From Gammaproteobacteria bacterium RIFCSPLOWO2_02_FULL_38_11 (GTDB lineage Bacteria; Pseudomonadota; Gammaproteobacteria; HIGHO2-12-38-15): a DNA stretch of 36,903 bases. The stretch is taken from positions 558 to 37,460 of the forward strand of contig MGYM01000013.1 in NCBI GenBank assembly GCA_001801745.1, given 5' to 3'. The number at the start of each line of letters is the position of its first letter. The first letter of the stretch is position 1. Made by a program: the position numbers and the translations under genes. The notes beneath the pieces were generated by a model. The model worked only from the letters and a program-made list of their open reading frames with translations. It was not told the origin of the DNA and searched no databases. Of the stretch, positions 9,366-36,632 are shown one piece after another.

Positions 9366-11909
9366 GTGAGTCTATTAAAATTTTTTCGATTAGCTATTTA
9401 CCTTGGGGTGATATTCACTCCCTTTGTTTTTGCAGAAGAGCAACAAACACCCCCGACTTCTTTGGCTAAGGAATTAGGTTGGATTATTGATTCGGCCAGC
9501 CCCAATTGTTGTTTTGGTTATTATTACGATCCTTTTGTTAAAATAAAATTAATGCCATTAGAAGATGCGCCTGTGACAGTGGCAGCAGACGGCGGTGTTT
9601 TTCGTCAACAAGGAGGCTCGGTCTTAACGGGTCATGTTGTGATTTCTCAACCGGGAAGGGAAATTACAGCGACGACTGCGACCTTAAATCGAGACACAGA
9701 AAAAGCATCAAATCAAGAAGAGAGTGTCAGCTTAGAAGGGAATGTAACAGTACGTGAACCCGGTAAATTTATATTAGCAAAAACGGGTATTGTCGATTTA
9801 AAAACAAAAATTATACGAATGCAAGAAGCTTATTACCGCATTGCTTTTGGTCGGCAGTTTGAATCAGAAAAAATAACTGGCACCGTGGCATGGGGCAAGG
9901 CTTCGAGTTTTGAACGACAAGCCGATAACATTTTTAATCTTAAAAATGCAAGCTACACAACATGCTCGCCTTTGAATCCAACATGGGTATTGCGTTCTGA
10001 ATCCATTTCTTTAAATCCCAATGTGGGACGAGGTGTGGCAAAAAATGTGATACTTGACGTAAAAAATATTCCTATTTTTTATTTTCCTTATTTTGATTTC
10101 CCTTTAGATAGACGACGACAATCTGGATTTTTATTTCCGACGATAGGCACATCTAATCAACAAGGTTTTAGTTTTATTCAACCTTATTATTGGAATATCG
10201 CGCCAAATTACGATGATACGATCACACCTGCATTTTATGGGAATCGCGGTGTACAACTGAGAAATGATTTTCGTTATTTAACGACAGGCAGTCGAGGTGA
10301 ATTTTATTTTGCGTTTTTGCCAAATGACACAGAATTTGACGAATTTAAAGCGCAAGCTCCCAGTAATTATGCCAACAGTCCTAGTCGTGCAAGCTTGCAG
10401 GCCTTAGAATCAACCAGTAATAATCGTTTCGGATTATCGTTTCAGCATGAAACGAGATTTGATGATCATTGGAATGCGGACATTAATTATAATTATGTGA
10501 ACGATGATTATTATCTTCAAGACTTTGGTTTTATGAAAGGGGTTGTGACACCGAATCAATTATTAAGAGAAGGAGAAATCGTTTATCAGGGAGAGATTTG
10601 GAATTTTAAAGGCTTATTGCAAAATTATTTAACCTTACACCCTGTAAATGAAACGCCGACGCAAAACCAATATAGCCGCATGCCAGAGTTGGATTTGACG
10701 GGTGATTTTCCTACGCGAAAATCCCAATTAAATTTTAATTGGGATTCCCAATTTGTTCATTTTCGAGAAGATACAAATCCCGGTGCAACATTAACATCGC
10801 CGACAGGTGAGCGTTTGAATCTTGTGCCTGCTTTTGATATTCCGTTTGTGAGTATAGGGGGGTATTTTATTCCTTCTGTTCAATATGAATTTACACAATA
10901 TGTTATTAATGGTGAAGTTGCAGCGAACGGTGAAATTTTTACGCCAAATACTATCAATCGTGAATTACCCATCATCGACGTGGACAGTGGAATGTATTTT
11001 GAAAAATCCATGAAATTTAAAAATAAAAAATATACGCAAACCTTAGAACCTCGCTTGTTTTATTTATATGTTCCTTATAAAAATCAAAATGATATTCCTG
11101 AATTTGATACAAGCTTGCAACCGTTTGGATACAATCAATTGTTTTTAACTAACCGATTTAGTGGCATTGACCGTATTGGAGATGCAAATCAATTATCATT
11201 GGGTATGACTTCGCGTTTATTAGATAAATCATCCAATCAAGAGAGAATAAGTTTTAGTTTAGGGGAGGTTTTCTATTTTCAAGATAGAAAAGTAACTTTA
11301 TGCACGGCGCCGGGATGCCATGACATTGATTCTTCCCCAGGTGCAACCTCTGCCACTGCCAGCATATCTCCCTTGGCGGGATTAGTGACTGTGGCATTAA
11401 CCCCTTCTTGGAAGATCAATGGCGGTATTGCTTGGGGGTTTGCAAATTATAAAACGAATAATGCAGAGTTAGGCTTATCTTATCATGGTGTAAATAATCG
11501 TGTTTTTAATATAGGTTATAATTTTTTAACGTTAGGCGATGAAATTCAAACCAATCCTTCTACACCCTCGAGCAGCGCTATCAATAATTTAAATCAAGCT
11601 TTAGTTTCTTTTGCCTGGCCTATCAAAGAACGCTGGCGTATTTTTACAAGTTTAACTTACAATATAAGCCACGTTCATGCCCAAAATTATCTTTATGGAT
11701 TTGAGTACAGCAGTTGTTGTTGGGCTGTGCGTATGGTGGCGGGAAGAGTATTTCAGTCATTGAATCAAAACAATAATCCTGTGTTTAATAATTCTGTTTT
11801 TTTGCAAGTACAGTTAAAAGGCTTAGGTAATTTTGGTACGAGTGACCCAGGGTCATTTTTGTCAAACAATATTGCGGGATACCATGATAATTTTGGAAAA
11901 ACAGTATGA
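9366..11909 (+). CDS. lptD: LPS-assembly outer-membrane protein LptD
   Basis: An 847-aa ORF with a GTG start and a signal peptide (MSLLKFFRLAIYLGVIFTPFVFA/EEQ). It has an OstA-like N-domain and a large beta-barrel C-domain, and sits upstream of surA with an ATGA overlap. Confidence 0.92.
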   Translation: MSLLKFFRLAIYLGVIFTPFVFAEEQQTPPTSLAKELGWIIDSASPNCCFGYYYDPFVKIKLMPLEDAPVTVAADGGVFRQQGGSVLTGHVVISQPGREITATTATLNRDTEKASNQEESVSLEGNVTVREPGKFILAKTGIVDLKTKIIRMQEAYYRIAFGRQFESEKITGTVAWGKASSFERQADNIFNLKNASYTTCSPLNPTWVLRSESISLNPNVGRGVAKNVILDVKNIPIFYFPYFDFPLDRRRQSGFLFPTIGTSNQQGFSFIQPYYWNIAPNYDDTITPAFYGNRGVQLRNDFRYLTTGSRGEFYFAFLPNDTEFDEFKAQAPSNYANSPSRASLQALESTSNNRFGLSFQHETRFDDHWNADINYNYVNDDYYLQDFGFMKGVVTPNQLLREGEIVYQGEIWNFKGLLQNYLTLHPVNETPTQNQYSRMPELDLTGDFPTRKSQLNFNWDSQFVHFREDTNPGATLTSPTGERLNLVPAFDIPFVSIGGYFIPSVQYEFTQYVINGEVAANGEIFTPNTINRELPIIDVDSGMYFEKSMKFKNKKYTQTLEPRLFYLYVPYKNQNDIPEFDTSLQPFGYNQLFLTNRFSGIDRIGDANQLSLGMTSRLLDKSSNQERISFSLGEVFYFQDRKVTLCTAPGCHDIDSSPGATSATASISPLAGLVTVALTPSWKINGGIAWGFANYKTNNAELGLSYHGVNNRVFNIGYNFLTLGDEIQTNPSTPSSSAINNLNQALVSFAWPIKERWRIFTSLTYNISHVHAQNYLYGFEYSSCCWAVRMVAGRVFQSLNQNNNPVFNNSVFLQVQLKGLGNFGTSDPGSFLSNNIAGYHDNFGKTV

Positions 11910-25035: not shown

Positions 25036-25500
25036 TTAGTTAAGCAATAGGTTATAAATTTTTTTAAATAAAGTTTCAATGTTTTTCGTTGTTTTGGGTG
25101 CAACGAAGATAGTATCATCACCTGCAACAGTGCCAAGGATGTCTAAATTTTTGGTTAAATCTAAGAGGCGTGCAACGACCTGGCCTGAACCAGACACAGT
25201 TTGAATGACAACAAGAGATTCATTGTGAGTGATGCGTGAGATTAATTTTTTTAAGATTTCTTTTGGAACAAAATATTTTTCTGCGTCAGAAGGTAGGCGA
25301 TAGACAATCTTGCCGTCTTCATTCATTTTGATGGCGCCCAGTTTATGTAATATTCTGGAGACGCGCACTTGGTTGACTGGGATGCCTTTTTTAAGAAGGG
25401 CGTCACGAATTTCTTCCTGTGTGCCTACAGCCTTTTTTTCCAGCAAACCTTGTATTGATGCGCTTAAATCTGTAGACGAGTAGTGTTTCTTTCTAGGCAT
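25036..25500 (-). CDS. argR: Arginine repressor ArgR
   Basis: A 154-aa protein from ATG 25500. It has an N-terminal winged helix (GTQEEIRDALLKKGIPVNQVRVSRILHKLG) and a C-terminal arginine-binding/oligomerisation motif (ILGTVAGDDTIFV). The track's 68-aa N-terminal extension crosses the promoter region and is rejected. Confidence 0.9.
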   Translation of the reverse strand: MPRKKHYSSTDLSASIQGLLEKKAVGTQEEIRDALLKKGIPVNQVRVSRILHKLGAIKMNEDGKIVYRLPSDAEKYFVPKEILKKLISRITHNESLVVIQTVSGSGQVVARLLDLTKNLDILGTVAGDDTIFVAPKTTKNIETLFKKIYNLLLN

Positions 25501-25539: not shown

Positions 25540-25573
25540 TGTATAATAATACATTATATTGTATAAATATACA
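25540..25573. promoter_or_regulatory. Two tandem ARG-box-like palindromes (putative ArgR operator) overlapping divergent -10 elements
   Basis: TGTAT-AATA-ATACA lies at 25540-25553 and TGTAT-AAAT-ATACA at 25560-25573, 20 bp centre to centre. The architecture matches the E. coli ARG box core TGAAT-W4-ATTCA. TATAAT on the + strand at 25542-25547 is inside box 1. TATAAT on the - strand at 25553-25558 lies between the boxes. Confidence 0.6.
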
Positions 25574-25594: not shown

Positions 25595-26704
25595 ATGGGT
25601 AAGTGTGTCAATCCTGGAGTCCTCGTATTAGCAGATGGTCTTATTTTTGAAGGCCTTAGCGTAGGTAGCCTGGGTGCTGTCTGCGGGGAAGTCGTATTTA
25701 ACACGGCACAAACAGGTTACCAAGAGATATTAACCGACCCTTCCTATGCTTCTCAAATTATTACTTTTACGCAGCCTCACATTGGTAATGTGGGTGTTAA
25801 CGCTTTGGATATGGAATCAGAGCATGTTTTTGCTAAAGGCGTGATCATGCGAAGCTTTTCTGATATCACGAGTAATTGGAGAGCACAAACGAGTTTAAAA
25901 AATTTTTTTGAAAAGCAGAAATTAATTGCGATCAGTGAAATTGATACGCGCGCTTTGACTCATCATTTAAGAGAAAAGGGCAGTCAATCTGCTTGTTTGA
26001 TGTCAGGAAAAATTAATATTTCAGAAGCTTTGAGATTAGCAAAAAATTTTCCGGGATTAGAAGGGAAAGATTTAGCAAAAGAAGTGACGACGAGTAAAAA
26101 TTATAGTTGGAATAAAAAAGAAGAAGGTGCGCCCTGCATTGTTGTTTACGATTTTGGTGTGAAGTACAGTATTTTACGCATGCTTTCTGAAAGTGATTAC
26201 TCCGTGATTGTTGTTCCTGCGACGACATCGCCAGAAGAAGTATTGTCGCTTCATCCCAAAGGCATCGTATTATCTAATGGGCCGGGAGATCCTGCTGCTT
26301 GTGATTATGCTATTAAAGCAATAAAGATTTTTTTAAAAAAACAAATTCCTTTAATGGGCATTTGTTTAGGTCATCAACTTTTAGCATTAGCATGTGGTGC
26401 GCAAACAAAAAAGATGAAGCGAGGTCATCATGGCGCTAATCATCCCGTTCAATGTTTAAAAACGAAATGTGTGTTTATCAGCTCACAAAATCATGGATTT
26501 GTGGTGGATGAAGACAGTTTGCCAGACAACTTATATGTAACACACCGTTCTTTATTTGATGGCACTATTGCAGGTATTGAACGTCAAGATCTGCCTGCTT
26601 TTGGTTTTCAAGGACATCCGGAAAGTAGCCCTGGTCCAACAGAATTAAATAATTTATTTGATCGTTTCTTCTCATTGATTAAGACACATGCCAAAACGAA
26701 CTGA
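25595..26704 (+). CDS. carA: Carbamoyl-phosphate synthase small (glutaminase) subunit
   Basis: [43 protein letters not shown] parallels E. coli CarA. The triad region is GICLGHQ...HGANHP...GFQGHPE. The ATG at 25595 follows AGAAGG. Confidence 0.93.
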
Positions 26705-29700
26705 TATCCATAGCATTTTAATCATCGGTGCAGGGCCTATTATCATAGGGCAGGCCTGCGAGTTTGATTATGCGGGAACACAAGCATGCAAAGCCCTAAA
26801 AGAAGAGGGTTATCGTATAATTTTAGTGAATTCCAATCCTGCCACGATGATGACAGATCCCGACATGGCTGATGCCACTTACATTGAGCCGTTAACGGTG
26901 GAGTCCCTTGAGAAAATCATTATTAAAGAACGTCCCCAAGTTTTACTGCCCACCCTCGGAGGGCAGACCGCATTAAATTGCGCGCTTGCCCTTGCAAAAC
27001 AAGGGATTTTAGAGCGATATCACATTGAGTTAATTGGCGCATCCATTAAAGCCATTGAATTAGCAGAAAATCGCAGCTTATTTCATGACTTGATGAAAAA
27101 AATTAATTTAGAAACGCCCGCTTCTTTTAAAATAAAAAATATTGAAGAATCAAAAAATATTTTGAAAATGATTTCTTTCCCCGTGATCATTCGTCCTTCT
27201 TTTGCGTTGGGAGGGACAGGTGCGGGCTTGGCATATGACGAAAAAGAATTTTTAAATTTATGTGAAAATGCCTTTGCTGTTTCAGATTTGCAAGAAATTA
27301 CGATAGATGAAGCCTTAATCGGCTGGAAAGAATTTGAATTAGAAGTGATTCGTGATCGTTTCGATAATTGCATCATCGTTTGTGGGGTTGAAAATCTTGA
27401 TCCTTTGGGTGTTCATACGGGCGACTCTATCACTGTCGCGCCGATTCAAACGCTCACAGACAAAGAATATCAAGCGATGCGACAAGATGCATTCTCAATT
27501 TTACGTGCGGTGGGTGTGGACACGGGAGGCAGTAATGTGCAGTTCGCTGTGCATCCTACAACAGGAAGACGTGTTGTCATTGAAATGAATCCGCGTGTTT
27601 CACGTTCTTCTGCTTTGGTATCTAAAGCCAGTGGGTTTCCCATTGCAAAAATAGCCGCCAAACTTGCAGTTGGGTACACCTTAGATGAATTGAGAAATGA
27701 TATCACGGGTGATCAACTGCCTTCTTCTTTTGAACCAAGCTTAGATTATGTTGTGGTAAAAATCCCAAGATTCAATTTTGAAAAATTCCCTCAACAAGAA
27801 AATAAAAAAGGCCCTCAAATGCGTTCAGTGGGTGAGGTGATGGGAATTGGACGTACTTTTGAAGAAGCACTACAAAAAGCCCTGGCAAGTTTAGAGAATA
27901 AAAACAGCGGATTTTCAACTATTTTTGAAAATTTAACTTGGGATGACTTGAAAAATAAGATTAAAGAAAATGGTTCAGAACAACTGGAGGCTATTGCAGA
28001 AGCGTTTCGTCAAGATAAAACGCCAAGAGAATTATTTGAATTAACGTATATCGATCCTTGGTTTTTGGAAAAAATAAATTCTTTAATTCAAATAGAAAAA
28101 AATATTAAAAAAAATAAAATAGATGATTTAACGCTGGATGTTTTAAAGTCGTATAAAAGACAAGGATTTTCTGATGCACACATTGCAGCTTGCGTAAATT
28201 CCTCTGAAGAAGATATTCGTCAATTAAGGTATGCGATGTTGCTTCATCCTGTGTACAAACGTGTTGATAGTTGTGCCGGTGAATTCTTTACACCAACGGC
28301 CTATCTTTATAGTACTTACGAACGAATATGTGAAGCAGCGCCTAGTCAAAAAGAAAAAATATTAATTATTGGTAGTGGTCCCAATCGTATTGGTCAAGGG
28401 ATTGAGTTTGATTATTGTTGTGTGCATGCCGTGAAAGCTTTGAAAAAAAGGGATTATGAAACGATTATGGTGAATTGTAATCCTGAAACTGTGTCAACGG
28501 ATTATGATATTGCTGATCGGCTTTATTTTTCTCCTTTAACCTTAGAAGAAGTTTTAGAAATAATTCGTCTAGAAAAACCTAAAGGTGTGTTTTTGCAATG
28601 GGGAGGGCAGACGCCTTTAAAATTAGCGGAAGATTTGGCGAAAGTGGGTATCAATCTATTAGGTCTTGATATGCAGGCTGTGCACAAAACAGAAGATCGT
28701 TATGCCTTCCAACAATTGCTTCATACCTTAAAATTAAAACAGCCTGAAAATCATTGTGTTTCTACGATACAAGAGGGTGAGAAGACTGCTAAGCAAATGG
28801 GGTTCCCCTTGATTATTCGCCCTTCTTTTGTATTAGGGGGGGCAGCGATGTCAATTATCAATGAGATGGAAAAATTAAAAATTTATTTAGAAAAAGCATT
28901 TGCGATGGATGATCGTTATCCTGTCTTAATAGAAAAGTTTTTGGAAGAAGCGCTTGAAGTGGACGTGGATGTGATCACTGACGGCGAAGAGGTGTTCATT
29001 CCTGCTTTTTTAGAACATATTGAGTTGGCAGGTGTGCACTCAGGTGATTCAGCGTGTATTACACCGATGCTTAATTTAAATAAAGAAATTCAAGAAAATT
29101 TAAAAGAACAAATTCAAAAAATTGCAAATCATTTAAATTTAAAAGGTATTTTCAATGTACAATTTGCAATTCAAAACCAAACGATTTACATCATTGAAGT
29201 TAATCCTCGTGCTTCCCGAACTTTGCCTTTTGTTTGTAAAGCCACCGGTATCCCTTTGGTGGAGCTTGCTGTTTATTGTGCGTTAGGTGAAAAATTACAA
29301 ACACAATCATTTTCTTCAATACAAAGCTTACCTTATTATTGTGTTAAAGAGGCGGTATTGCCTTTTTCGAAATTTTCAAAATCTCCTGTTTTTTTAGGAC
29401 CAGAAATGAAATCGACGGGAGAGGTGATGGGGATAGGTAGCACACCTTCTGAAGCTTATGCGAAAGCGCAGATTGCGTCAGGGAACCCTCTACCAAAACC
29501 AGGTTTGGCTTATATTGTGGCTTCATTACAAGATAAAAAATTTTTTTCAGAAAAATTAAAACAGTTAGGATTTAAAATTACGTCTAAGTTATCTTCTGAT
29601 TGTGCATTGATCATCGCAATCAATGCATTTTTTGATCCTCATGAAGAAGCGTTAAAAGCCGCTCGTTTTGCTGTTGACAAAGAGATTTGTTATGTCACCT

Positions 29701-30704
29701 CACATCGTGCTGCCTTAATGTTAATAGGTGCTTTAGATTATTACTTGAAAGAATCTTTTCAGGTGACTTCATTGCAAAATTTATATAAGCGTCAAATAAA
29801 GCATTTTTTAACAGGAGAAGAGTTAAGCCCGGATGAATTGAAAAAGATTTTAAATACCGCTTTGATATTAAAAAAGGATCGTTTTAAAAAAAATGAAAAA
29901 TTAATTTTAGAAAAAAAACAATTGGCGCTACTGTTTGACAAGCCTTCCTTGCGCACACGTTTTAGTTTTACAGTTGCCATGAGAGAGTTGGGGGGTGATG
30001 TTATTGAAAGTATTCAAACTACACGTAAAGAAGAAACGCCTGAAGATCAAGCGCGGGTGCTGAGTGCTTATTGTAGCGGCATTGTTGTTCGTACATTTGA
30101 TGATGAATATCTTAAAAAAATGTCGAGTATGAGCACGGTCCCTGTGATTAATGGCTTATCTGACTTGCATCATCCCTGCCAAATTTTAGCTGATCTTTTA
30201 ACATTGCTCGAACATTTTAGTTCTTTCCAGAATGTTACTTTATGTTATATCGGCGATGGAAATAACATTTTGCATAGCCTGTTATTACTTGCGCCGCAAA
30301 TGGGCGTGACCTTACATTATTGCTGCCCTGCAAAAAGACAGCCTCATTCTGAAATTTTGAAAAGAAGTTTAGAAAAATTAAATTCATTGACGGGAAAAAT
30401 TATTTCTTTTACAAGCCCTGAAGCTGCCATCAAACATGCCAATGCGGTTTATACGGATGTGTGGACAAGCATGGGCTTTGAAGAAAAAGCAGAAGAGTCT
30501 TTATTTCAAGGATTTCAAATCAATGAGGCATTAATGCAAAAAGCCATGCCGCATGCCATTTTAATGCATTGTCTTCCAATGCAGCGTGGAAAAGAAATCA
30601 GTGAAACCTTGCCTGAGAAAGCCGAATCTGTGATTTTTCAACAAAGTGAAAATCGATTGCATGTTCAAAAATCATTGTTATTAATGTTATTAAAGGGGAA
30701 ATAA
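26688..30704 (+). CDS. carB: Fusion protein: carbamoyl-phosphate synthase large subunit (aa 1-~1036) + ornithine carbamoyltransferase (aa ~1038-1338)
   Basis: One uninterrupted 1338-codon frame. The CarB halves are [23 protein letters not shown]... and [23 protein letters not shown]..., each with an ATP-grasp domain. The OTC part runs from nt 29799 and has KHFL..., [50 protein letters not shown] and [11 protein letters not shown]. The start overlaps the carA end by 17 nt. Confidence 0.9.
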
Positions 30705-30707
30705 AAT

Positions 30708-31916
30708 ATGGCTGAAAAAATTATATTAGCTTATTCAGGAGGGCTTGACACCTCCTGTTCAATCAAATGGTTAAACGAAAAATATGGTTATGATGTTATT
30801 GCGATGGTCGTGGATGTGGGGGAGGGGAAAGTATTAGAACCCATTCGTGATAAAGCACTGAAAGTGGGTGCGAAGCAATGTTATGTTATGCCTTTACAAA
30901 CGATGTTTTCAGAAGAATTTTTAGTGCCTGCATTACAAGCCAATTGTTTGTATGAAGGTGTTTACCCTTTAATTTCTGCCTTGTCTCGTCCTTTGATTGC
31001 ACGCAGTTTGGTAGAAATTGCAAAAAAAGAAAATGCGGTGGCTGTTGCACATGGTTGTACGGGCAAGGGCAATGACCAAGTACGTTTTGATGTAGCGATA
31101 CATTCTTTGGCGCCACATTTAAAAATCGTTGCGCCTGCCAGAGAAAATCCCATGCCGCGTGAAGAAGCGATTTTGTATGCGAAAAAACATAATATCCCTT
31201 TGCCGATCGATTTAAATAATCCATTTAGCATTGATCAAAATTTATGGGGACGTAGTTGTGAATGTGGTGTATTAGAAGACCCTTGGGTACCGCCACCTGA
31301 AGAAGCTTACGCCTTAACTTCTTCTGTTTTACAATGTCCTGATTTAGCAGAAGAAGTGATCATTGGATTTGAGTCAGGTATTCCAAAGAGTTTAGATGGG
31401 CATCAAAAATTATTACCTGAATTGATTCAAGAACTTAATCAAATAGCAGGAAAGCACGGGGTAGGGCGTATTGATCATGTTGAAAACCGTTTGATTGGTA
31501 TTAAATCCAGAGAGGTATATGAAGCGCCTGCTGCGATGACCTTGATTGCAGCGCATCGTGCATTGGAAGCTTTGACCTTGGTCCGTGAAGTTGCGCATTT
31601 CAAGCCGCTGATTGAAAATGAATTTTCAAATTTAATTTATGAAGGATTATGGTTTTCATCTTTAAGAGAAGCCCTGTATGCATTTATTCAAAAAACGCAA
31701 GAACGAGTGACAGGAAAAGTACGTATAAGATTGCATAAAGGTCAAGCTATTGTTGTGGGACGAAGCTCGCCTTATTCTTTATACATCAAGTCGTTAGCGA
31801 CCTATGCCGAGGAAGATCAATTTGATCATCATGCGGCAGAAGGATTTATTAAATTGTGGGGCTTGCCCACGAAAACAGATCGTAATATTGCTTTCTTAGG
31901 ACAAACGGATGAGTAA
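30708..31916 (+). CDS. argG: Argininosuccinate synthase
   Basis: It has the ATP-binding motif AYSGGLDTS, then [12 protein letters not shown] and [10 protein letters not shown]. The protein is 402 aa and starts 3 nt after the fusion-gene stop. Confidence 0.95.
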
Positions 31917-33330
31917 AAAATTGTGGGGTGGTCGTTTCAAAAAGAAGATGCATCCGATTGTTGAGCGTTACACAGCATCAATTATGTTTGATAAAGTGCT
32001 TGTTTTTGAAGATATTTTAGGGAGTTTGGCGCATACAAATATGTTATCTCATTGTGGCATTATCACAAAAAAAGAAGGTGAACTTTTAAAAAAAGGGTTG
32101 GAAAAAATTGCAAGCTTGGTTTCTGAAAATAAAATTAAATTTTTTATAGAAGACGAAGATATTCATATGAATATAGAACGTCTTCTGCATAAGTATATAG
32201 GTCCGACAGCGGGGAAATTACATACGGCACGTAGTCGAAATGATCAAGTGGCTTTAGATTTACATTTATATTTAAGAAAAAAAATATTAAGCATTTTAGA
32301 CTTATTGGTTTTGTTACAAAATAATTTTTTAAAGATAGCAGAAGAAAATGAAGATGTTATTTTGCCGGGTTATACCCATTTACAGCGCGCGCAGCCATTA
32401 CGTTTTTCTCAATATTGTTTTGCTTATATTTCGATGTTTGCCCGTGATATTGAAAATTTAAAATCTTTATGGCCTGCGGTTAATACCTCGCCCTTGGGTG
32501 CATGTGCGCTTTCCGGAACGATTTTACCGACGAATAAAGAATATGTTGCGAAATTGTTGGGATTTGATGCTGTTTATGCGAGTAGCTTAGATGCGGTCAG
32601 TGATCGTGATTTTGTTATTTCATTTTTAGCAGCAGCCAGTCTTATCATGATGCATATTTCAAGATTAAGTGAGGAATGGATTTTGTGGTCCACTCAAGAA
32701 TTTAATTTTATTTCTTTTGACGATGCGTTTTGCACGGGCAGTAGTATGATGCCGCAGAAAAAAAATCCGGACGTGGCGGAATTAGGGCGAGGGAAAACGG
32801 GGCGTGTTTATGGTTCGCTGATATCGCTTTTAAGCATCATGAAAAGCTTGCCTTTGGCTTACAATAAAGATTTGCAAGAAGACAAAGAGCCCTTATTTGA
32901 CACAATAAAAACATTAGAAGACACATTATCGATTTATTCTTTATTATTATCTTCATTGAAAATAAATAAAGAAACGATGAAGAAAGCTTTGGAAAAAGGA
33001 TTTTTAAACGCAACAGTTTTTGCAGAATATTTAGTAAAAAAAGGTTTAGCATTTCGACAAGCGCATGAAGTGGTAGGTCAAATGGTAGCGGTGTGTATTC
33101 ATAAAGAATGTGCATTAGAATTGCTTACTTTAAAAGAGATGCAATCATTTTGTAAATTGATTAAAAATGATGTTTATCGTGTTATTTCTCCTTTGTGCAT
33201 TGAAAAAACCTCTAAAAGAACAATTCAATTTTACCGTGAAAAAATTAAAAAGAATCAACAATGGCTTACTCAAAAAAGTAAATCTATTAAAAAAATATAT
33301 GACCATGCCGGCTTGCCTTTTATCCCATAA
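31909..33330 (+). CDS. argH: Argininosuccinate lyase
   Basis: [10 protein letters not shown] start, TARSRNDQV, and the fumarate-lyase signature [12 protein letters not shown]. It overlaps the argG end by 8 nt. Confidence 0.95.
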
Positions 33331-33342
33331 CACCACTGGCAT

Positions 33343-33387
33343 ATTGGGTGTAATTGGGTATAATTGGGTGTGTGGGTATATCTGGGA
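33343..33387. repeat. 10-bp phased tandem repeat (ATTGGGTRTA x3 plus degenerate units)
   Basis: The units are ATTGGGTGTA, ATTGGGTATA, ATTGGGTGTG, TGGGTATATC and TGGGA. TGGG recurs at 33345, 33355, 33365, 33373 and 33383. A TATAAT at 33359-33364 is embedded, with CTGGCA 17 nt upstream (33336-33341). The repeat lies directly upstream of the fic ATG. Confidence 0.75.
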
Positions 33388-33395
33388 ATGGTTTA

Positions 33396-34484
33396 ATGAG
33401 ACGGCCTTCTGAGGGAAAAATCATAGAAATTAAGCCTATCCGTTTAAATCCTCAAATGCTTAATTTAATTTCTGAAATAGATAGATTTCAGTGTATTTGG
33501 GTGGAGATAAAGGAATTACACCCTGAGCGTTTAGCACAATTACGCAAGGTGGCGACAATTGAGAGCATCGGTTCTTCGACCCGTATTGAAGGTTCTAGAT
33601 TATCAGACAAGGAAGTAGAAAAGTTATTATTAAATATTGAAATCCAGTCTTTTCGTTCACGTGACGAAGAAGAAATAGCGGGTTATGCAGAAGGAATAGA
33701 AGAAATATTCCAGAGTTACGATACCATTCCGCTTACAGAAAATTACATAAAGCAATTGCATTCGATATTATTAAAATACAGTTCTAAAGATGTGCGTCAT
33801 CGGGGAAAATATAAAAAATTTCCCAATCATGTAGAGGCCTTTAATAATCAAGGAAAGAGCGTAGGTATTGTTTTTGAAACAGCAAAGCCGTTCGATACTC
33901 CTTTTTTGATGAAAGAAATAATCCATTGGACCAATGAAGCTTTGCTAAAAAAGACATTACATCCTTTGGTAGTTGTAGGTATTTTTATTGTATGGTTTTT
34001 AGCGATTCATCCTTTTCAAGATGGGAATGGTCGCTTATCACGCGTCTTAACGATTTTGTTATTATTAAGGTTGGGGTATAGCTATGTCCCCTATAGTTCT
34101 TTAGAGAGCATTATCGAAGAAAATAAAAAAAATTATTATCTAGCATTAAGACGAACGCAAGCAACATTAAATAAATCCAATCCTAACTGGACAAGTTGGC
34201 TTAGATTTTTTCTTTCTGTTCTGAAAAAACAGAAGGATAATTTAAATCGAAAATTAAAAAAAGACAGTGTATTAATTGGAAAATTGAATCCATTAGAATT
34301 AGAAATAATGAATCATGTGAAATCCTATTCTCAAGTTACAATCAGCCAACTTGAAAATTTAACAAAAATAAATCGTAATACCTTAAAGAGTTTGCTAAGA
34401 GGATTAGTCAAAAAGAAATATTTGATATTATGTGGAAAGGGGCGTTCTGCGTGGTATGTGCTTGATCTACCTACTATGGATTAG
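33396..34484 (+). CDS. Fic-family protein (class II, N-terminal inhibitory helix; C-terminal winged-helix domain)
   Basis: The Fic motif HPFQDGNGRLSR lies at nt 34008-34043. The inhibitory motif [ST]xxxE[GN] is S-T-R-I-E-G at nt 33576-33593, upstream of the Fic core. The C-terminal ~70 aa are wHTH-like (LELEIMNHVKSYSQVTISQLENLTKINRNTLKSLLRGLVKKKYL). I chose the ATG at 33396. The track's TTG at 33354 would translate the tandem repeat. Confidence 0.85.
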   Translation: MRRPSEGKIIEIKPIRLNPQMLNLISEIDRFQCIWVEIKELHPERLAQLRKVATIESIGSSTRIEGSRLSDKEVEKLLLNIEIQSFRSRDEEEIAGYAEGIEEIFQSYDTIPLTENYIKQLHSILLKYSSKDVRHRGKYKKFPNHVEAFNNQGKSVGIVFETAKPFDTPFLMKEIIHWTNEALLKKTLHPLVVVGIFIVWFLAIHPFQDGNGRLSRVLTILLLLRLGYSYVPYSSLESIIEENKKNYYLALRRTQATLNKSNPNWTSWLRFFLSVLKKQKDNLNRKLKKDSVLIGKLNPLELEIMNHVKSYSQVTISQLENLTKINRNTLKSLLRGLVKKKYLILCGKGRSAWYVLDLPTMD

Positions 34485-35609: not shown

Positions 35610-36632
35610 ATGAATGAAGAAGAAAAGATAAATCAAGTTTGTCAGGCTGTAAAACATCACCCTGATTTTTTTCATAGTATTGTTCTTTTCTATATCCGAT
35701 TAGAATTAGAGAAAAAAGAGCTGGTCCTGACTTCGCGACAGGGGATCATTATCTGTTTTAAACTTTTTTTAGATAAATTACTCCGAGAGTGTAATGAGGC
35801 AGAAGATCAAATGGGTGTCTTTTGTTTGGGGCAAGCGCTTTCTTCTTTTTCTGAAGCTGAGCCAAGTTATCTTCGTCAGTTTTTGCGGTGTTATTCGAAT
35901 GTATTAGAGTATTTATATCTTAATATAATTGAAGATGAAAAATTTATAAAAAAAATTTCGGACTGGGAAAAGTCCCGTGGTTCTATTAGTCATTTGTCCA
36001 TTCAATCTCTTTCTTTGATTGAGGCTGTGAGAAGAAATGATTTTCCTTCACTACGATTATTTTTGAGAAAAAATCGTCAGCTCTGTATAGATTTAAATGA
36101 TAAGATGACTGTTTTAAAAAGGACATTAAAAAAATCCGACAGTTATCTTTATTCTTATCCCGAGATTACTGATGTTGCTAAATCATACGCATTCTCTGTT
36201 ATTAATGTCCCCGATCTTTCGGGTCGTACTGCGATAGATCACGCTGTGGATGGGGTTGTGAAGGGTGATGATAAATACTATGAGGCTTTAGTAGCGTATT
36301 TTGGATTTAAATATATTAACTGCCCAGAGCCAATCTTGGATTCAAGCGAGCTTAATTTCATTCAGCGTTTGTTTGATGCGGGGTATTTGTCAAAAAAAAT
36401 AAAGGAGACGACTGATCTTGAGTACCTCTCTGAGTTTTGTGCTTTTTACTATAATGCTTTGGATCCAAACAGGCGAGAGGCGTTTCTAAAAGTTTATATT
36501 CCACGATGTAATCGTTTTTTATCCCCGTTATGCTCTAGCAAGAGAGTGCATGCAGGGATAAAAGACCAAGAAACAGAATATGATGAGCCAATAGTGCCAA
36601 TGCAGGCGAGTAGTTCTATGTCTTATTCCTGA
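35610..36632 (+). CDS. Hypothetical protein with degenerate ankyrin-like repeats (orphan; effector candidate)
   Basis: A 340-aa ORF with GAGGA 4 nt upstream of the ATG. I recognised no catalytic motif. Two segments resemble ankyrin repeats by eye: LIEAVRRNDFPSLRLFLRKNRQLCIDLND and DLSGRTAIDHAVDGVVKG. The C-terminal tail is acidic and Ser-rich (KDQETEYDEPIVPMQASSSMSYS). Confidence 0.6.
   Translation: MNEEEKINQVCQAVKHHPDFFHSIVLFYIRLELEKKELVLTSRQGIIICFKLFLDKLLRECNEAEDQMGVFCLGQALSSFSEAEPSYLRQFLRCYSNVLEYLYLNIIEDEKFIKKISDWEKSRGSISHLSIQSLSLIEAVRRNDFPSLRLFLRKNRQLCIDLNDKMTVLKRTLKKSDSYLYSYPEITDVAKSYAFSVINVPDLSGRTAIDHAVDGVVKGDDKYYEALVAYFGFKYINCPEPILDSSELNFIQRLFDAGYLSKKIKETTDLEYLSEFCAFYYNALDPNRREAFLKVYIPRCNRFLSPLCSSKRVHAGIKDQETEYDEPIVPMQASSSMSYS

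What the first reader, a model, noticed from the sequence alone, without database searches (positions are those of the whole stretch)
26688..30704. Covalent fusion of CarB (carbamoyl-phosphate synthase large subunit) to ornithine carbamoyltransferase in one 1338-aa polypeptide
**What the sequence shows.**
- A single uninterrupted reading frame runs from a complete CarB into a complete OTC.
- CarB has both ATP-grasp halves plus oligomerisation and carbamoyl-phosphate domains.
- The OTC has KHFL..., [28 protein letters not shown] and SENRLHVQK.
- The junction reads ...[19 protein letters not shown]... at nt ~29790-29830. I see no stop, no internal Shine-Dalgarno/start and no frameshift there.

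**Established background.**
- In characterised bacteria, carB and argF/argI are separate genes.
- The well-known covalent CPSase-transcarbamylase fusion is eukaryotic CAD/URA2, which joins CPSase to aspartate transcarbamylase in the pyrimidine branch.
- Non-covalent CP channelling to OTC has been described in hyperthermophiles.
- I am not aware of a characterised CPS-OTC fusion.

**Inference.**
- The fusion would channel labile carbamoyl phosphate directly into citrulline/arginine synthesis.
- It raises the question of how the pyrimidine branch obtains carbamoyl phosphate if this is the only CPSase.
Basis: partly seen in the sequence, partly recalled or inferred. Interest (0 to 1): 0.78.

Follow-up and report, generated by a model that had tools for sequence, protein, structure and literature searches.

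The report
Carbamoyl-phosphate synthase fused to ornithine carbamoyltransferase
A single bacterial gene really does join the enzyme that makes carbamoyl phosphate to the enzyme that uses it for arginine synthesis; this fusion is conserved across Legionella-type bacteria but no published description was found, making it an arginine-pathway counterpart of the well-known eukaryotic CAD fusion.

Summary
The 1338-aa ORF at 26688..30704 is real. It encodes a CarB large subunit joined in frame to a complete anabolic-type ornithine carbamoyltransferase (OTC). It is not an assembly artefact. The junction DNA is identical in independent assemblies, and about 30 protein clusters at 53-66% identity share the architecture, including cultured Legionella drozanskii, feeleii, donaldsonii and massiliensis.

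The allosteric domain lacks the segment that binds UMP/IMP in E. coli, while the ornithine-site residues are kept. The join is about 7 residues and is predicted to be flexible.

The gene sits in an argR | carA, carB::argF, argG, argH cluster behind tandem ARG-box-like palindromes. Close relatives have separate, overlapping carB and argF, and most Legionella species keep only the OTC part.

Best reading: an arginine-dedicated, ArgR-controlled synthase tethered to OTC so that carbamoyl phosphate goes to citrulline. Activity, channelling and oligomeric state are inferred. Whether a second housekeeping carAB exists in this genome was not testable. No paper describing the fusion was found. I rate it a new variant of a known kind, of moderate to high interest.

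The parts
25036..25500 (-). argR (arginine repressor, 154 aa as called), divergent from the operon
   Evidence: Pfam Arg_repressor and Arg_repressor_C. Called gene in L005 8349-8813, which equals window 25036-25500.
25540..25573 (.). Two ARG-box-like 14-bp palindromes, TGTATAATAATACA (25540-25553) and TGTATAAATATACA (25560-25573), 20 bp start to start, 22 bp upstream of the carA ATG. Putative ArgR operator.
   Evidence: These are the only 2 matches in the window; 0.10 expected from shuffles. Equivalent 20-bp-spaced pairs lie upstream of carA in the fused operons L089 (TGAATAATAATTCA / TGAATAATTATTCA) and L090, and one copy lies upstream of carA in the unfused sister L001.
25595..26704 (+). carA, glutamine amidotransferase small subunit of CPSase (369 aa as called). 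It overlaps the fusion gene start by 17 nt.
   Evidence: Pfam CPSase_sm_chain and GATase. TIGR01368 453 bits against a cutoff of 307. Called gene.
26688..28343 (+). Fusion gene, aa 1-552: first ATP-grasp half (carboxyphosphate synthesis) plus oligomerisation domain
   Evidence: CPSase_L_D1 7-124, CPSase_L_D2 129-334, CPSase_L_D3 424-502. Catalytic columns are invariant across fused and canonical CarBs.
28344..29486 (+). Fusion gene, aa 553-933: second ATP-grasp half (carbamate phosphorylation, the site where carbamoyl phosphate is made)
   Evidence: Second CPSase_L_D1/D2 copies. The AlphaFold model superposes on E. coli CarB 1bxr_A (E 2.3e-47, 45% identity). Residues equivalent to E. coli E783, D791 and E892 (window E779, D787, E888) are invariant.
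29496..29777 (+). Fusion gene, aa 937-1030: reduced allosteric-domain remnant. It lacks the 30-45 residue segment that carries the UMP/IMP phosphate-binding residues in E. coli CarB. It ends in the conserved CarB C-terminal 'LQ'.
   Evidence: No PF02142 (MGS) hit. NF003671 match ends at 966/1058. The E. coli CarB alignment ends at residue 972. The gap relative to canonical CarBs is visible in the alignment. The model shows a b-a-b-b-a-b-a unit with block-mean pLDDT of about 79-95.
29778..29798 (+). Junction, aa 1031-1037 (NLYKRQI): about 7 residues between the CarB 'LQ' and the OTC N-terminal K-H-F-L-T-G. This is the shortest linker in the family.
   Evidence: Linker length varies from about 6 to about 19 residues among fused homologues but is always in frame. 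Model residues 475-482 have pLDDT below 50. The junction DNA is identical in L005 and L006.
29799..30704 (+). Fusion gene, aa 1038-1338 plus stop: complete ornithine carbamoyltransferase domain
   Evidence: This segment alone scores 319.2 bits on TIGR00658 (cutoff 280.85) and 343.8 on NF001986 (cutoff 306). K-P-S-x-R-T-R, HPCQ, DVW-x-SMG and HC(L/M)P are invariant or conservatively varied in the 33 aligned fused sequences. Foldseek target TM-score to anabolic OTCs is 0.90-0.94.
30708..31916 (+). argG (argininosuccinate synthase), 3 nt after the fusion gene
   Evidence: Pfam Arginosuc_synth and Arginosuc_syn_C.
31909..33330 (+). argH (argininosuccinate lyase), overlapping argG by 8 nt
   Evidence: Pfam Lyase_1 and ASL_C2.

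Best explanation
The ORF is a genuine, evolutionarily conserved bifunctional gene, carB::argF. Together with the CarA encoded just upstream, it forms a glutamine-dependent carbamoyl-phosphate synthetase whose large subunit carries a complete anabolic OTC at its C-terminus.

Shown:
- The two enzymes are joined almost end to start, by about 7 residues predicted to be flexible.
- The CarB allosteric domain has lost the stretch that binds UMP/IMP in E. coli CarB, but keeps the residues of the ornithine site.
- The gene lies in an argR | carA, carB::argF, argG, argH cluster behind tandem ARG-box-like palindromes.
- The architecture is shared by a whole clade of Legionellales-type gammaproteobacteria, and it has been split or trimmed back to OTC alone in several lineages.

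Inferred:
- This is an arginine-dedicated CPSase. It is repressed by ArgR, is no longer under pyrimidine-nucleotide feedback, and may still be activated by ornithine.
- OTC needs to trimerise to build its active sites, so the OTC domains probably form a trimeric core that carries three CarA-CarB units.
- Carbamoyl phosphate made in the second ATP-grasp half is released close to an OTC active site and converted to citrulline. This is proximity channelling; a sealed tunnel is not required.
- argG and argH then finish arginine synthesis.
- The early arginine genes (argC/J/B/D) are not next to any fused operon examined, so the module may run on imported or otherwise supplied ornithine.
For: ORF and architecture.

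Not an artefact: near-identical 1338-aa proteins in ENA, Logan and two NCBI records (EKD75803.1, OGT75627.1), and a close variant on 12 contigs. The junction DNA is identical in L005 and L006. About 30 clusters at 53-66% identity share the same architecture and have variable in-frame linkers. Isolate genomes of L. drozanskii, L. feeleii, L. donaldsonii and L. massiliensis carry it.

Both halves under purifying selection: CarB catalytic columns and OTC motifs are invariant.

OTC identity: passes the TIGR00658 cutoff and fails the ATCase, PTCase and AOTCase cutoffs. The best solved relatives are anabolic OTCs.

Allosteric truncation. Window E779, D787 and E888 are invariant and T1005 is nearly invariant. 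By alignment these correspond to E. coli E783, D791, E892 and T1042; their roles as ornithine-site residues are from my knowledge of the E. coli CPS structures.

Arginine operon and operator.

Distinct paralogue-like clade: 100% bootstrap on a long stem away from ordinary CarBs.

Separate housekeeping CPSase locus in the genus: L. pneumophila carA lpg2023 and pyrB lpg0588, far from argR-argGHF at lpg0490-0496.

Likely precursor or derivative state: unfused relatives have carA, carB, argF, argG, argH with the carB stop overlapping the argF start by 11 nt (L001) or 7 nt (L009).
Against: - There are no experimental data of any kind. Activity, oligomeric state and channelling are all inferred.
- The AlphaFold model gives no defined CarB-OTC interface (pTM 0.61, linker pLDDT below 50). 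A structured tunnel is therefore unsupported.
- The fusion has been undone or reduced to OTC alone repeatedly: P0031-34, L009, and most Legionella including L. pneumophila. Any advantage is evidently dispensable.
- A second, housekeeping carAB was not demonstrated in this organism or in any fusion-bearing genome.
- The ARG boxes are sequence matches only. The Legionella fused operons (L007, L091) do not show the same palindrome.
- A possible symmetry mismatch between a trimeric OTC and E. coli-type CPSase oligomers is unresolved.
Confidence: 0.72

Rival explanations
1. Assembly or sequencing artefact: carB and argF are adjacent, separate genes, and a 1-2 nt indel in the assembly merged them.
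For: The closest unfused relatives differ from a fusion by just one frame offset in the linker: the L001 carB stop overlaps the argF ATG by 11 nt. A T6 run lies at 29804-29809, just after the junction.
Against: The junction DNA is identical in independently assembled ENA and Logan contigs. Near-identical 1338-aa proteins appear in two further NCBI records. About 30 diverged clusters (53-66% identity) are all in frame with different linker lengths, including isolate genomes. There is no start codon or Shine-Dalgarno sequence for a separate argF. The T6 run encodes the conserved H-F-L of the OTC N-terminus.
Confidence: 0.02
2. The fusion enzyme is the organism's only CPSase and supplies both arginine and pyrimidine synthesis. 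Carbamoyl phosphate would leak from the complex to ATCase, or pyrimidines would be salvaged from a host.
For: No other CPSase or transcarbamylase is present in the 36.9-kb window. A second carAB was not demonstrated in any fusion-bearing genome. Many relatives are host-associated, reduced-genome bacteria. The linker is flexible, so leakage is plausible.
Against: The window covers only a small part of the genome. The enzyme has lost the UMP/IMP-binding segment expected of a shared CPSase. It sits in an ArgR-type operon, which would starve pyrimidine synthesis under arginine repression. L. pneumophila has carA and pyrB at other loci, and Berkiella (Legionellales) is reported to have carA, carB and pyrB-F (PMC9803151). 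The fused clade sits on a long, separate branch typical of a specialised paralogue.
Confidence: 0.2
3. One of the two halves is a non-catalytic, scaffolding pseudo-domain, like the inactive DHOase-like domain of yeast URA2. The protein would then be effectively monofunctional.
For: The CarB allosteric domain is degraded. The carbamoyl-phosphate motif of the OTC domain reads S-L-R-T-R instead of the textbook S-T-R-T-R. Some relatives show decay: L003 keeps only a 106-aa OTCace_N fragment.
Against: Both halves exceed the curated equivalog cutoffs. All catalytic motifs are invariant across the 33 aligned fused sequences. S-[LF]-R-T-R is common in stand-alone OTCs of many phyla and in the unfused sister's ArgF. 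The OTC model superposes on active OTCs at target TM-score 0.90-0.94.
Confidence: 0.05
4. The fusion is a selectively near-neutral by-product of overlapping, translationally coupled genes (loss of a stop codon) with no kinetic benefit. It only ensures 1:1 stoichiometry.
For: The ancestral-type operon has carB and argF overlapping by 7-11 nt. Fused and split states interconvert through a 1-nt change. Fission or loss has occurred repeatedly. There is no predicted interface.
Against: The fused state persists across both deep subclades, at 53-66% identity. It is accompanied by a clade-wide remodelling of the adjacent allosteric domain. In relatives, linker length stays short rather than drifting. 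These points argue for some constraint, but they do not prove a kinetic benefit.
Confidence: 0.25

Closest known systems
CAD (animals) and URA2 (fungi): GATase-CPSase-(DHOase)-ATCase multienzyme polypeptide
   Same: A CPSase large-subunit module is covalently followed on the same chain by a trimer-forming transcarbamylase of the OTCace/ATCase fold. The textbook rationale is the same: partitioning and partial channelling of labile carbamoyl phosphate into one branch.
   Different: Here the acceptor enzyme is OTC (arginine branch), not ATCase. The glutaminase (carA) is a separate gene. There is no DHOase or DHOase-like spacer: the join is about 7 residues. The organism is bacterial. The allosteric domain is truncated rather than rewired to UTP/PRPP control.
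Arginine-specific CPSases that coexist with a pyrimidine-specific one (Bacillus CarAB vs PyrAA/PyrAB; fungal CPA1/CPA2). Basis: my own knowledge, plus PMC6022934 for fungi.
   Same: The enzyme is encoded in an arginine gene cluster and appears to be under arginine-repressor control. The nucleotide-binding part of the allosteric domain is lost. It forms a separate, fast-evolving clade relative to ordinary CarBs.
   Different: Those enzymes are not fused to OTC. Coexistence with a second CPSase is documented for them but was not shown here.
Non-covalent CPS/carbamate-kinase-OTC channelling complexes of hyperthermophiles (Pyrococcus), and mitochondrial CPS1-OTC clustering. Basis: my own knowledge; the topic is reviewed in PMC6022934.
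   Same: The same pair of reactions, with the same proposed benefit: carbamoyl phosphate is handed directly to OTC.
   Different: Those are associations between separate proteins, and in Pyrococcus the synthetase has a carbamate-kinase fold. Here there is one polypeptide with an ATP-grasp CPSase.
CarB-ATCase fusion found here (P0158, 1396 aa)
   Same: CarB is followed on the same chain by a transcarbamylase.
   Different: P0158 keeps an intact MGS-like allosteric domain. Its C-terminal domain passes the ATCase equivalog TIGR00670 (347 bits) and not the OTC one. It is only about 35% identical to the query and belongs to a separate lineage.

Membership tests
CarB, glutamine-dependent CPSase large subunit (TIGR01369 / NF003671) | Whole-protein score above the curated equivalog cutoff | tested here: met
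   NF003671 1454.7 bits (cutoff 599); TIGR01369 1377.1 bits (cutoff 1027).
CarB, glutamine-dependent CPSase large subunit (TIGR01369 / NF003671) | Two tandem ATP-grasp synthetase halves plus an oligomerisation domain | tested here: met
   CPSase_L_D1 x2, CPSase_L_D2 x2, CPSase_L_D3. The model superposes on 1bxr_A.
CarB, glutamine-dependent CPSase large subunit (TIGR01369 / NF003671) | C-terminal MGS-like allosteric domain with a UMP/IMP site | tested here: not met
   No PF02142 hit, whereas ordinary CarBs in the same search have one. The model match ends at 966/1058. A 30-45 residue deletion covers the segment aligned to E. coli residues from about 973 on. A reduced remnant fold remains.
CarB, glutamine-dependent CPSase large subunit (TIGR01369 / NF003671) | Partner CarA glutaminase subunit encoded alongside | tested here: met
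   carA at 25595-26704 overlaps the fusion start. TIGR01368 453 bits (cutoff 307).
Anabolic ornithine carbamoyltransferase (ArgF/ArgI, TIGR00658) | Score above the OTC equivalog cutoff and below the cutoffs of sister transcarbamylases | tested here: met
   TIGR00658 314-319 bits (cutoff 280.85). Putrescine CTase 216-221 (cutoff 500), ATCase 138-142 (cutoff 237), AOTCase 132-137 (cutoff 288).
Anabolic ornithine carbamoyltransferase (ArgF/ArgI, TIGR00658) | Catalytic motifs S-x-R-T-R, H-P-x-Q, D-x-x-x-S-M-G, H-C-L-P | tested here: met
   SLRTR 1087, HPCQ 1162, DVWTSMG 1257, HCLP 1294. These are invariant or conservatively varied in the 33 aligned fused sequences.
Anabolic ornithine carbamoyltransferase (ArgF/ArgI, TIGR00658) | Homotrimer with active sites shared between subunits | not testable with these tools
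   Only a monomer model was made. Trimerisation is inferred from the family.
Anabolic ornithine carbamoyltransferase (ArgF/ArgI, TIGR00658) | Biosynthetic rather than catabolic (arc operon) genomic context | tested here: met
   Flanked by carA, argG, argH and argR. No arcA or arcC nearby.
CAD/URA2-type CPSase-transcarbamylase multienzyme | CPSase and a transcarbamylase on one polypeptide | tested here: met
CAD/URA2-type CPSase-transcarbamylase multienzyme | The transcarbamylase is aspartate carbamoyltransferase (pyrimidine branch) | tested here: not met
   The C-terminal domain is OTC, not ATCase.
CAD/URA2-type CPSase-transcarbamylase multienzyme | GATase fused N-terminally, and a DHOase or DHOase-like domain between CPSase and the transcarbamylase | tested here: not met
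   carA is a separate ORF. The inter-domain join is about 7 residues.
CAD/URA2-type CPSase-transcarbamylase multienzyme | Kinetic channelling of carbamoyl phosphate | not testable with these tools
   Requires enzyme assays. The model gives no fixed interface.
Arginine-specific CPSase paralogue | Encoded in, and co-regulated with, an arginine biosynthesis operon | tested here: met
   argR | carA, carB::argF, argG, argH. Tandem ARG-box-like palindromes upstream of carA here and in L089, L090 and L001. ArgR binding itself was not tested.
Arginine-specific CPSase paralogue | Insensitive to pyrimidine nucleotides | tested here: inconclusive
   The segment carrying the nucleotide phosphate-binding residues is deleted. 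Effector response cannot be measured in silico.
Arginine-specific CPSase paralogue | Coexists with a second, pyrimidine or housekeeping CPSase in the same genome | not tested
   Only 37-46 kb of this genome is available. Indirect evidence: L. pneumophila has carA lpg2023 and pyrB lpg0588 away from the arg cluster.

The most novel reading that the evidence does not exclude
The fused enzyme is a true carbamoyl-phosphate-channelling machine, the arginine-branch counterpart of CAD. The deletion in the CarB allosteric domain created the docking surface for the OTC domain. An OTC trimer organises three CarA-CarB units, so that ammonia, carbamate and carbamoyl phosphate pass through four active sites without equilibrating with the cytosol. 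In some reduced genomes this would commit the cell's CPSase entirely to turning host-derived ornithine into arginine.
Probability: 0.2. Interest if true: 0.75.

Novelty: new variant of a known kind. Interest (0 to 1): 0.58.

Why it matters
Carbamoyl phosphate is a labile branch-point metabolite. How cells partition it between arginine and pyrimidines is a classic problem, solved differently in E. coli (one enzyme with dual allosteric and transcriptional control), in Bacillus and fungi (two enzymes) and in animals (CAD).

A natural, covalently linked bacterial CPSase-OTC would be a compact two-gene system for testing channelling into the arginine branch directly, by comparing fused with split forms. 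Natural split relatives (L001, L009) and OTC-only relatives (most Legionella) are available as controls. It also shows what happens to the CarB allosteric domain when the enzyme is dedicated to one branch.

For Legionella biology, it clarifies the patchy arginine module. Fusion-bearing species appear able to make arginine from ornithine with their own dedicated CP supply. L. pneumophila and many others have lost the CPSase part.

For annotation, these proteins are currently named after only one of their two activities.

Tried and rejected
(1) I tested whether the 55-75 residue N-terminal extensions of stand-alone Legionella ArgFs (conserved 'TNTFVINLQQAIF') are vestiges of the CarB allosteric remnant. 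An HMM of the fused region scored the real extensions at 3.9 bits or less, against up to 9.9 bits for shuffled controls. Rejected. Only the N-terminus of Legionella sp. CNM-1927-20 ArgF is a clear fused-type CarB tail plus linker.

It returned mostly stand-alone OTCs from many phyla that share F[DE]KPS[FL]RTR. It did show that S-[LF]-R-T-R is not unusual, so I dropped the idea that the T-to-L change marks an altered active site.

(3) The NJ tree of OTC domains, built to prove that stand-alone Legionella ArgFs nest inside fused lineages, has deep nodes supported at only 13-48%. It is not used as evidence of nesting.

(4) Literature searches for any description of a CPS-OTC or carB-argF fusion found nothing. 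Searches for a canonical Legionella carB gave only carA lpg2023 and pyrB lpg0588, from a truncated supplementary table.

(5) I first described the two ARG boxes as separated by 3 bp. The 14-mers start 20 bp apart, so 18-bp boxes are separated by 2 bp.

(6) The AlphaFold model did not give a confident inter-domain arrangement (pTM 0.61), so I make no structural claim about a tunnel.

Full report
OBSERVATION. The window has a single ATG-initiated ORF at 26688..30704 (+) of 1338 codons with no internal stop. Pfam finds two CPSase pre-ATP-grasp and two ATP-binding domains, the CPSase oligomerisation domain (aa 424-502), then OTCace_N (1038-1175) and OTCace (1181-1333). NCBIfam places the N-terminal part above the CarB equivalog cutoffs: NF003671 at 1454.7 bits against 599, and TIGR01369 at 1377.1 against 1027. 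The C-terminal part is above the OTC equivalog cutoff, TIGR00658 at 314-319 bits against 280.85. It is far below the cutoffs for putrescine, aspartate and N-acetylornithine carbamoyltransferases. The junction reads ...[19 protein letters not shown]....

IS IT AN ARTEFACT? No, on four grounds.
- The 200 nt around the junction are identical in an ENA metagenome scaffold (L005) and in a contig assembled independently from run SRR2090156 (L006). Over the whole gene these differ from the window at one nucleotide.
- The 90% cluster also contains 1338-aa members from two further NCBI records (EKD75803.1 and OGT75627.1) and a variant seen on 12 contigs.
- About 30 protein clusters of 1258-1372 aa share the architecture at 53-66% identity. 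Their linkers differ in length, from about 6 to about 19 residues between the conserved CarB 'LQ' and the OTC 'K/R-H-x-L-T-G', yet all stay in frame.
- Isolate genomes carry the fusion: Legionella drozanskii LLAP-1, L. feeleii, L. donaldsonii and L. massiliensis. L. tunisiensis shows it as two pieces on one contig.
An exhaustive HMMER pass over 1.84 billion 50%-identity representatives found this family as one full-length representative (P0013) plus two shorter entries spanning the junction. No other CPS-OTC lineage appeared among the top 150.

ANATOMY.
- The CarB catalytic core is intact. Catalytic columns are invariant across fused and ordinary CarBs. An AlphaFold2 model of aa 553-1338 (mean pLDDT 84.5) superposes on E. 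coli CarB (1bxr_A, E 2.3e-47).
- The allosteric domain is not intact. There is no MGS (PF02142) hit, although ordinary CarBs in the same search have one. The CarB model match ends at position 966 of 1058. The match to E. coli CarB ends at residue 972.
- The alignment shows that all fused proteins lack 30-45 residues that canonical CarBs have ('ATRGTA...VNKV.EGRPHIVD'). From my knowledge of the E. coli structures, this segment carries T974, T977 and K993 of the UMP/IMP site.
- Window residues E779, D787 and E888 are invariant and T1005 is nearly invariant. By alignment these correspond to the E. coli ornithine-site residues E783, D791, E892 and T1042.
- What remains (aa about 937-1030) is predicted to be a small b-a-b-b-a-b-a unit.
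- The join to OTC is essentially end to start: seven residues (NLYKRQI) in the window, the shortest in the family. It is predicted to be flexible (pLDDT below 50), and pTM of 0.61 gives no defined inter-domain geometry.
- The OTC domain is complete. K-P-S-x-R-T-R, HPCQ, DVW-x-SMG and HC(L/M)P are invariant or conservatively varied across the 33 aligned fused sequences. The model matches anabolic OTCs at target TM-score 0.90-0.94.
- The S-L-R-T-R variant of the usual S-T-R-T-R is not peculiar. It occurs in the unfused sister's ArgF and in stand-alone OTCs of many phyla.

CONTEXT AND REGULATION.
- The gene order is argR (-), carA, carB::argF, argG, argH, with 17-nt and 8-nt overlaps and a 3-nt gap.
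- Between argR and carA lie two 14-bp palindromes, TGTATAATAATACA and TGTATAAATATACA, starting 20 bp apart. They are the only matches in the window, with 0.10 expected by chance.
- The same arrangement recurs upstream of carA in other fused operons. L089 has two perfect E. coli-type TGAAT-N4-ATTCA boxes, L090 has two one-mismatch copies, and the unfused sister L001 has a single copy. This matches the classic tandem ARG-box operator (my knowledge). ArgR binding itself is untested.
- In Legionella the order is argR (-), three ABC-transporter genes, argG, argH, carA, carB::argF.
- None of the fused operons examined has argC/J/B/D alongside. The unfused relatives L001 and L009 do.
- The rest of the window is ordinary chromosomal housekeeping with no other CPSase or transcarbamylase.

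EVOLUTION.
- On the CarB catalytic part, the fused proteins plus four unfused ones (P0031-34) form a clade with 100% bootstrap support, on a long stem away from ordinary CarBs. It has two subclades (99% and 100%), each containing fused members. The unfused ones sit inside the window's subclade, although the internal nodes are weak. I take one old fusion with later splits to be the most economical reading.
- In L001 the split form differs from a fusion by one frame offset. carB ends ...LQKRYSYDN*, and argF starts at an ATG 11 nt before that stop, behind an AAGAGG. L009 is similar, with a 7-nt overlap. L003 keeps only a 106-aa OTC fragment.
- Most named Legionella species have a stand-alone ArgF that is 64-69% identical to the fused OTC domain. 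These include L. pneumophila, L. longbeachae and L. bozemanae.
- L. pneumophila has argR lpg0490, an ABC transporter at lpg0491-0493, argG, argH and argF at lpg0494-0496. This is the L. massiliensis order minus carA and the carB part.
- In L. resiliens, L. anisa and L. parisiensis only the OTC remains, in the syntenic position between the solute-binding gene and corA.
- One stand-alone ArgF (Legionella sp. CNM-1927-20) still begins with the fused-type CarB tail and linker, LLEPLQELHGQIKHPNKTKH. This is direct evidence of descent from a fusion.
- The conserved N-terminal extension of the L. pneumophila-type ArgFs is not detectably CarB-derived. The OTC tree is too weakly supported at depth to count events.

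HOW IT MOST LIKELY WORKS.
Shown: a two-gene unit (carA plus carB::argF) that encodes all the catalytic equipment needed to go from glutamine, bicarbonate, ATP and ornithine to citrulline. It is followed by the two enzymes that finish arginine synthesis, and it sits behind an arginine-repressor-type operator.
Inferred:
- This is an arginine-dedicated CPSase. It has given up pyrimidine-nucleotide control and may keep ornithine activation.
- OTC active sites are built between subunits of a trimer (established for the family). The OTC domains therefore probably form a trimeric core that holds three CarA-CarB units.
- The domain that makes carbamoyl phosphate (aa 553-933) is next to the allosteric remnant, whose C-terminus leads within about 7 residues into OTC. 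The product is therefore released close to an OTC site, which amounts to proximity channelling.
- A sealed tunnel is not supported by the model.
- L. pneumophila has a carA (lpg2023) and a pyrB (lpg0588) at other loci, and Berkiella is reported to have carA, carB and pyrB-F (PMC9803151). This makes it plausible that fusion-bearing species also have a housekeeping CPSase. I could not test this directly.

COMPARISON WITH WHAT IS KNOWN.
- The nearest concept is CAD/URA2, which also has a CPSase and a transcarbamylase on one chain. It differs in the acceptor enzyme (ATCase), in having a fused glutaminase, and in having a DHOase-type spacer.
- The nearest functional analogue is the arginine-specific CPSase of Bacillus and fungi, which is not fused to OTC.
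- CPS-OTC coupling is known only as a non-covalent association, in Pyrococcus and for mitochondrial CPS1-OTC.
- The 2018 review of carbamoyl phosphate enzymes lists the glutaminase-synthetase and CAD-type fusions but no CPS-OTC fusion (PMC6022934).
- Six full-text searches found no paper describing one.
- The sequences themselves are public but are named after only one activity.

VERDICT. It is a new variant of a known kind, a CPSase-transcarbamylase fusion in the arginine branch. It is undescribed in the literature I could search and is directly testable. Interest 0.58.

Noticed in passing
L012 9818-10894, L015 9818-10894, L013 (match at 10004-10885): In Legionella resiliens, L. parisiensis and L. 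anisa, the locus syntenic to the L. massiliensis fusion holds only the OTC domain. For L012 and L015 this is a 358-aa ORF with intact catalytic motifs, lying between the solute-binding-protein gene and corA. No CarB remnant is found by tblastn. argG, argH, carA and the carB part appear to have been deleted.
   Followed up: yes
P0313, P0318, P0326, P0312, P0302 and others (stand-alone Legionella ArgF, 355-371 aa): Stand-alone ArgFs of L. pneumophila, L. longbeachae, L. bozemanae and others carry a 55-75 residue N-terminal extension with a strongly conserved motif, TNTFVINLQQAIF. It has no detectable similarity to the CarB remnant. Its function is unknown.
   Followed up: partly
P0158 (1396 aa): A separate CarB-transcarbamylase fusion. 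It is a full CarB with an intact MGS-like domain, followed by a domain that passes the aspartate carbamoyltransferase equivalog (TIGR00670, 347 bits). This is a CAD-like CarB-PyrB fusion of unknown taxon.
   Followed up: partly
P0157 (1349 aa): CarB with an MGS domain fused to a complete diaminopimelate epimerase (two DAP_epimerase domains). I did not check whether this is a real fusion or a gene-calling or assembly artefact.
   Followed up: no
L003 11166-11486 (locus of P0032): In this 2.0-Mb contig, the arginine-cluster carB (1052 aa) is followed by only a 106-aa OTCace_N fragment before argG. An amino-acid ABC transporter is inserted between argG and argH. This looks like a decayed argF.
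   Followed up: no
P0131 (832 aa) and P0293 (478 aa), same 27,353-bp contig of Legionella tunisiensis: In this draft genome the fusion gene appears as two ORFs, annotated separately as CarB and as OTC. P0293 begins inside the CarB carbamate-phosphorylation half. This is probably a frameshift in the draft assembly or a recent pseudogene.
   Followed up: partly
window 33354-34484 (+): A Fic/DOC-domain protein (376-aa ORF; 362 aa as called) lies directly downstream of argH. It matches the protein adenylyltransferase Fic model only weakly (59.7 bits against a cutoff of 550).
   Followed up: no
window 35610-36632 (+): A 340-aa ORF, also called as a gene in the ENA record, has no Pfam or NCBIfam family hit.
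   Followed up: no
L007 4128-4249 and L091 4308-4377: The argR-operon intergenic regions of L. massiliensis and L. donaldsonii lack the TGNAT-N4-ATNCA palindromes seen in the window's subclade. Instead they share a different conserved stretch (AAAATGGATATA..TTGGAT), which may be a diverged operator.
   Followed up: no
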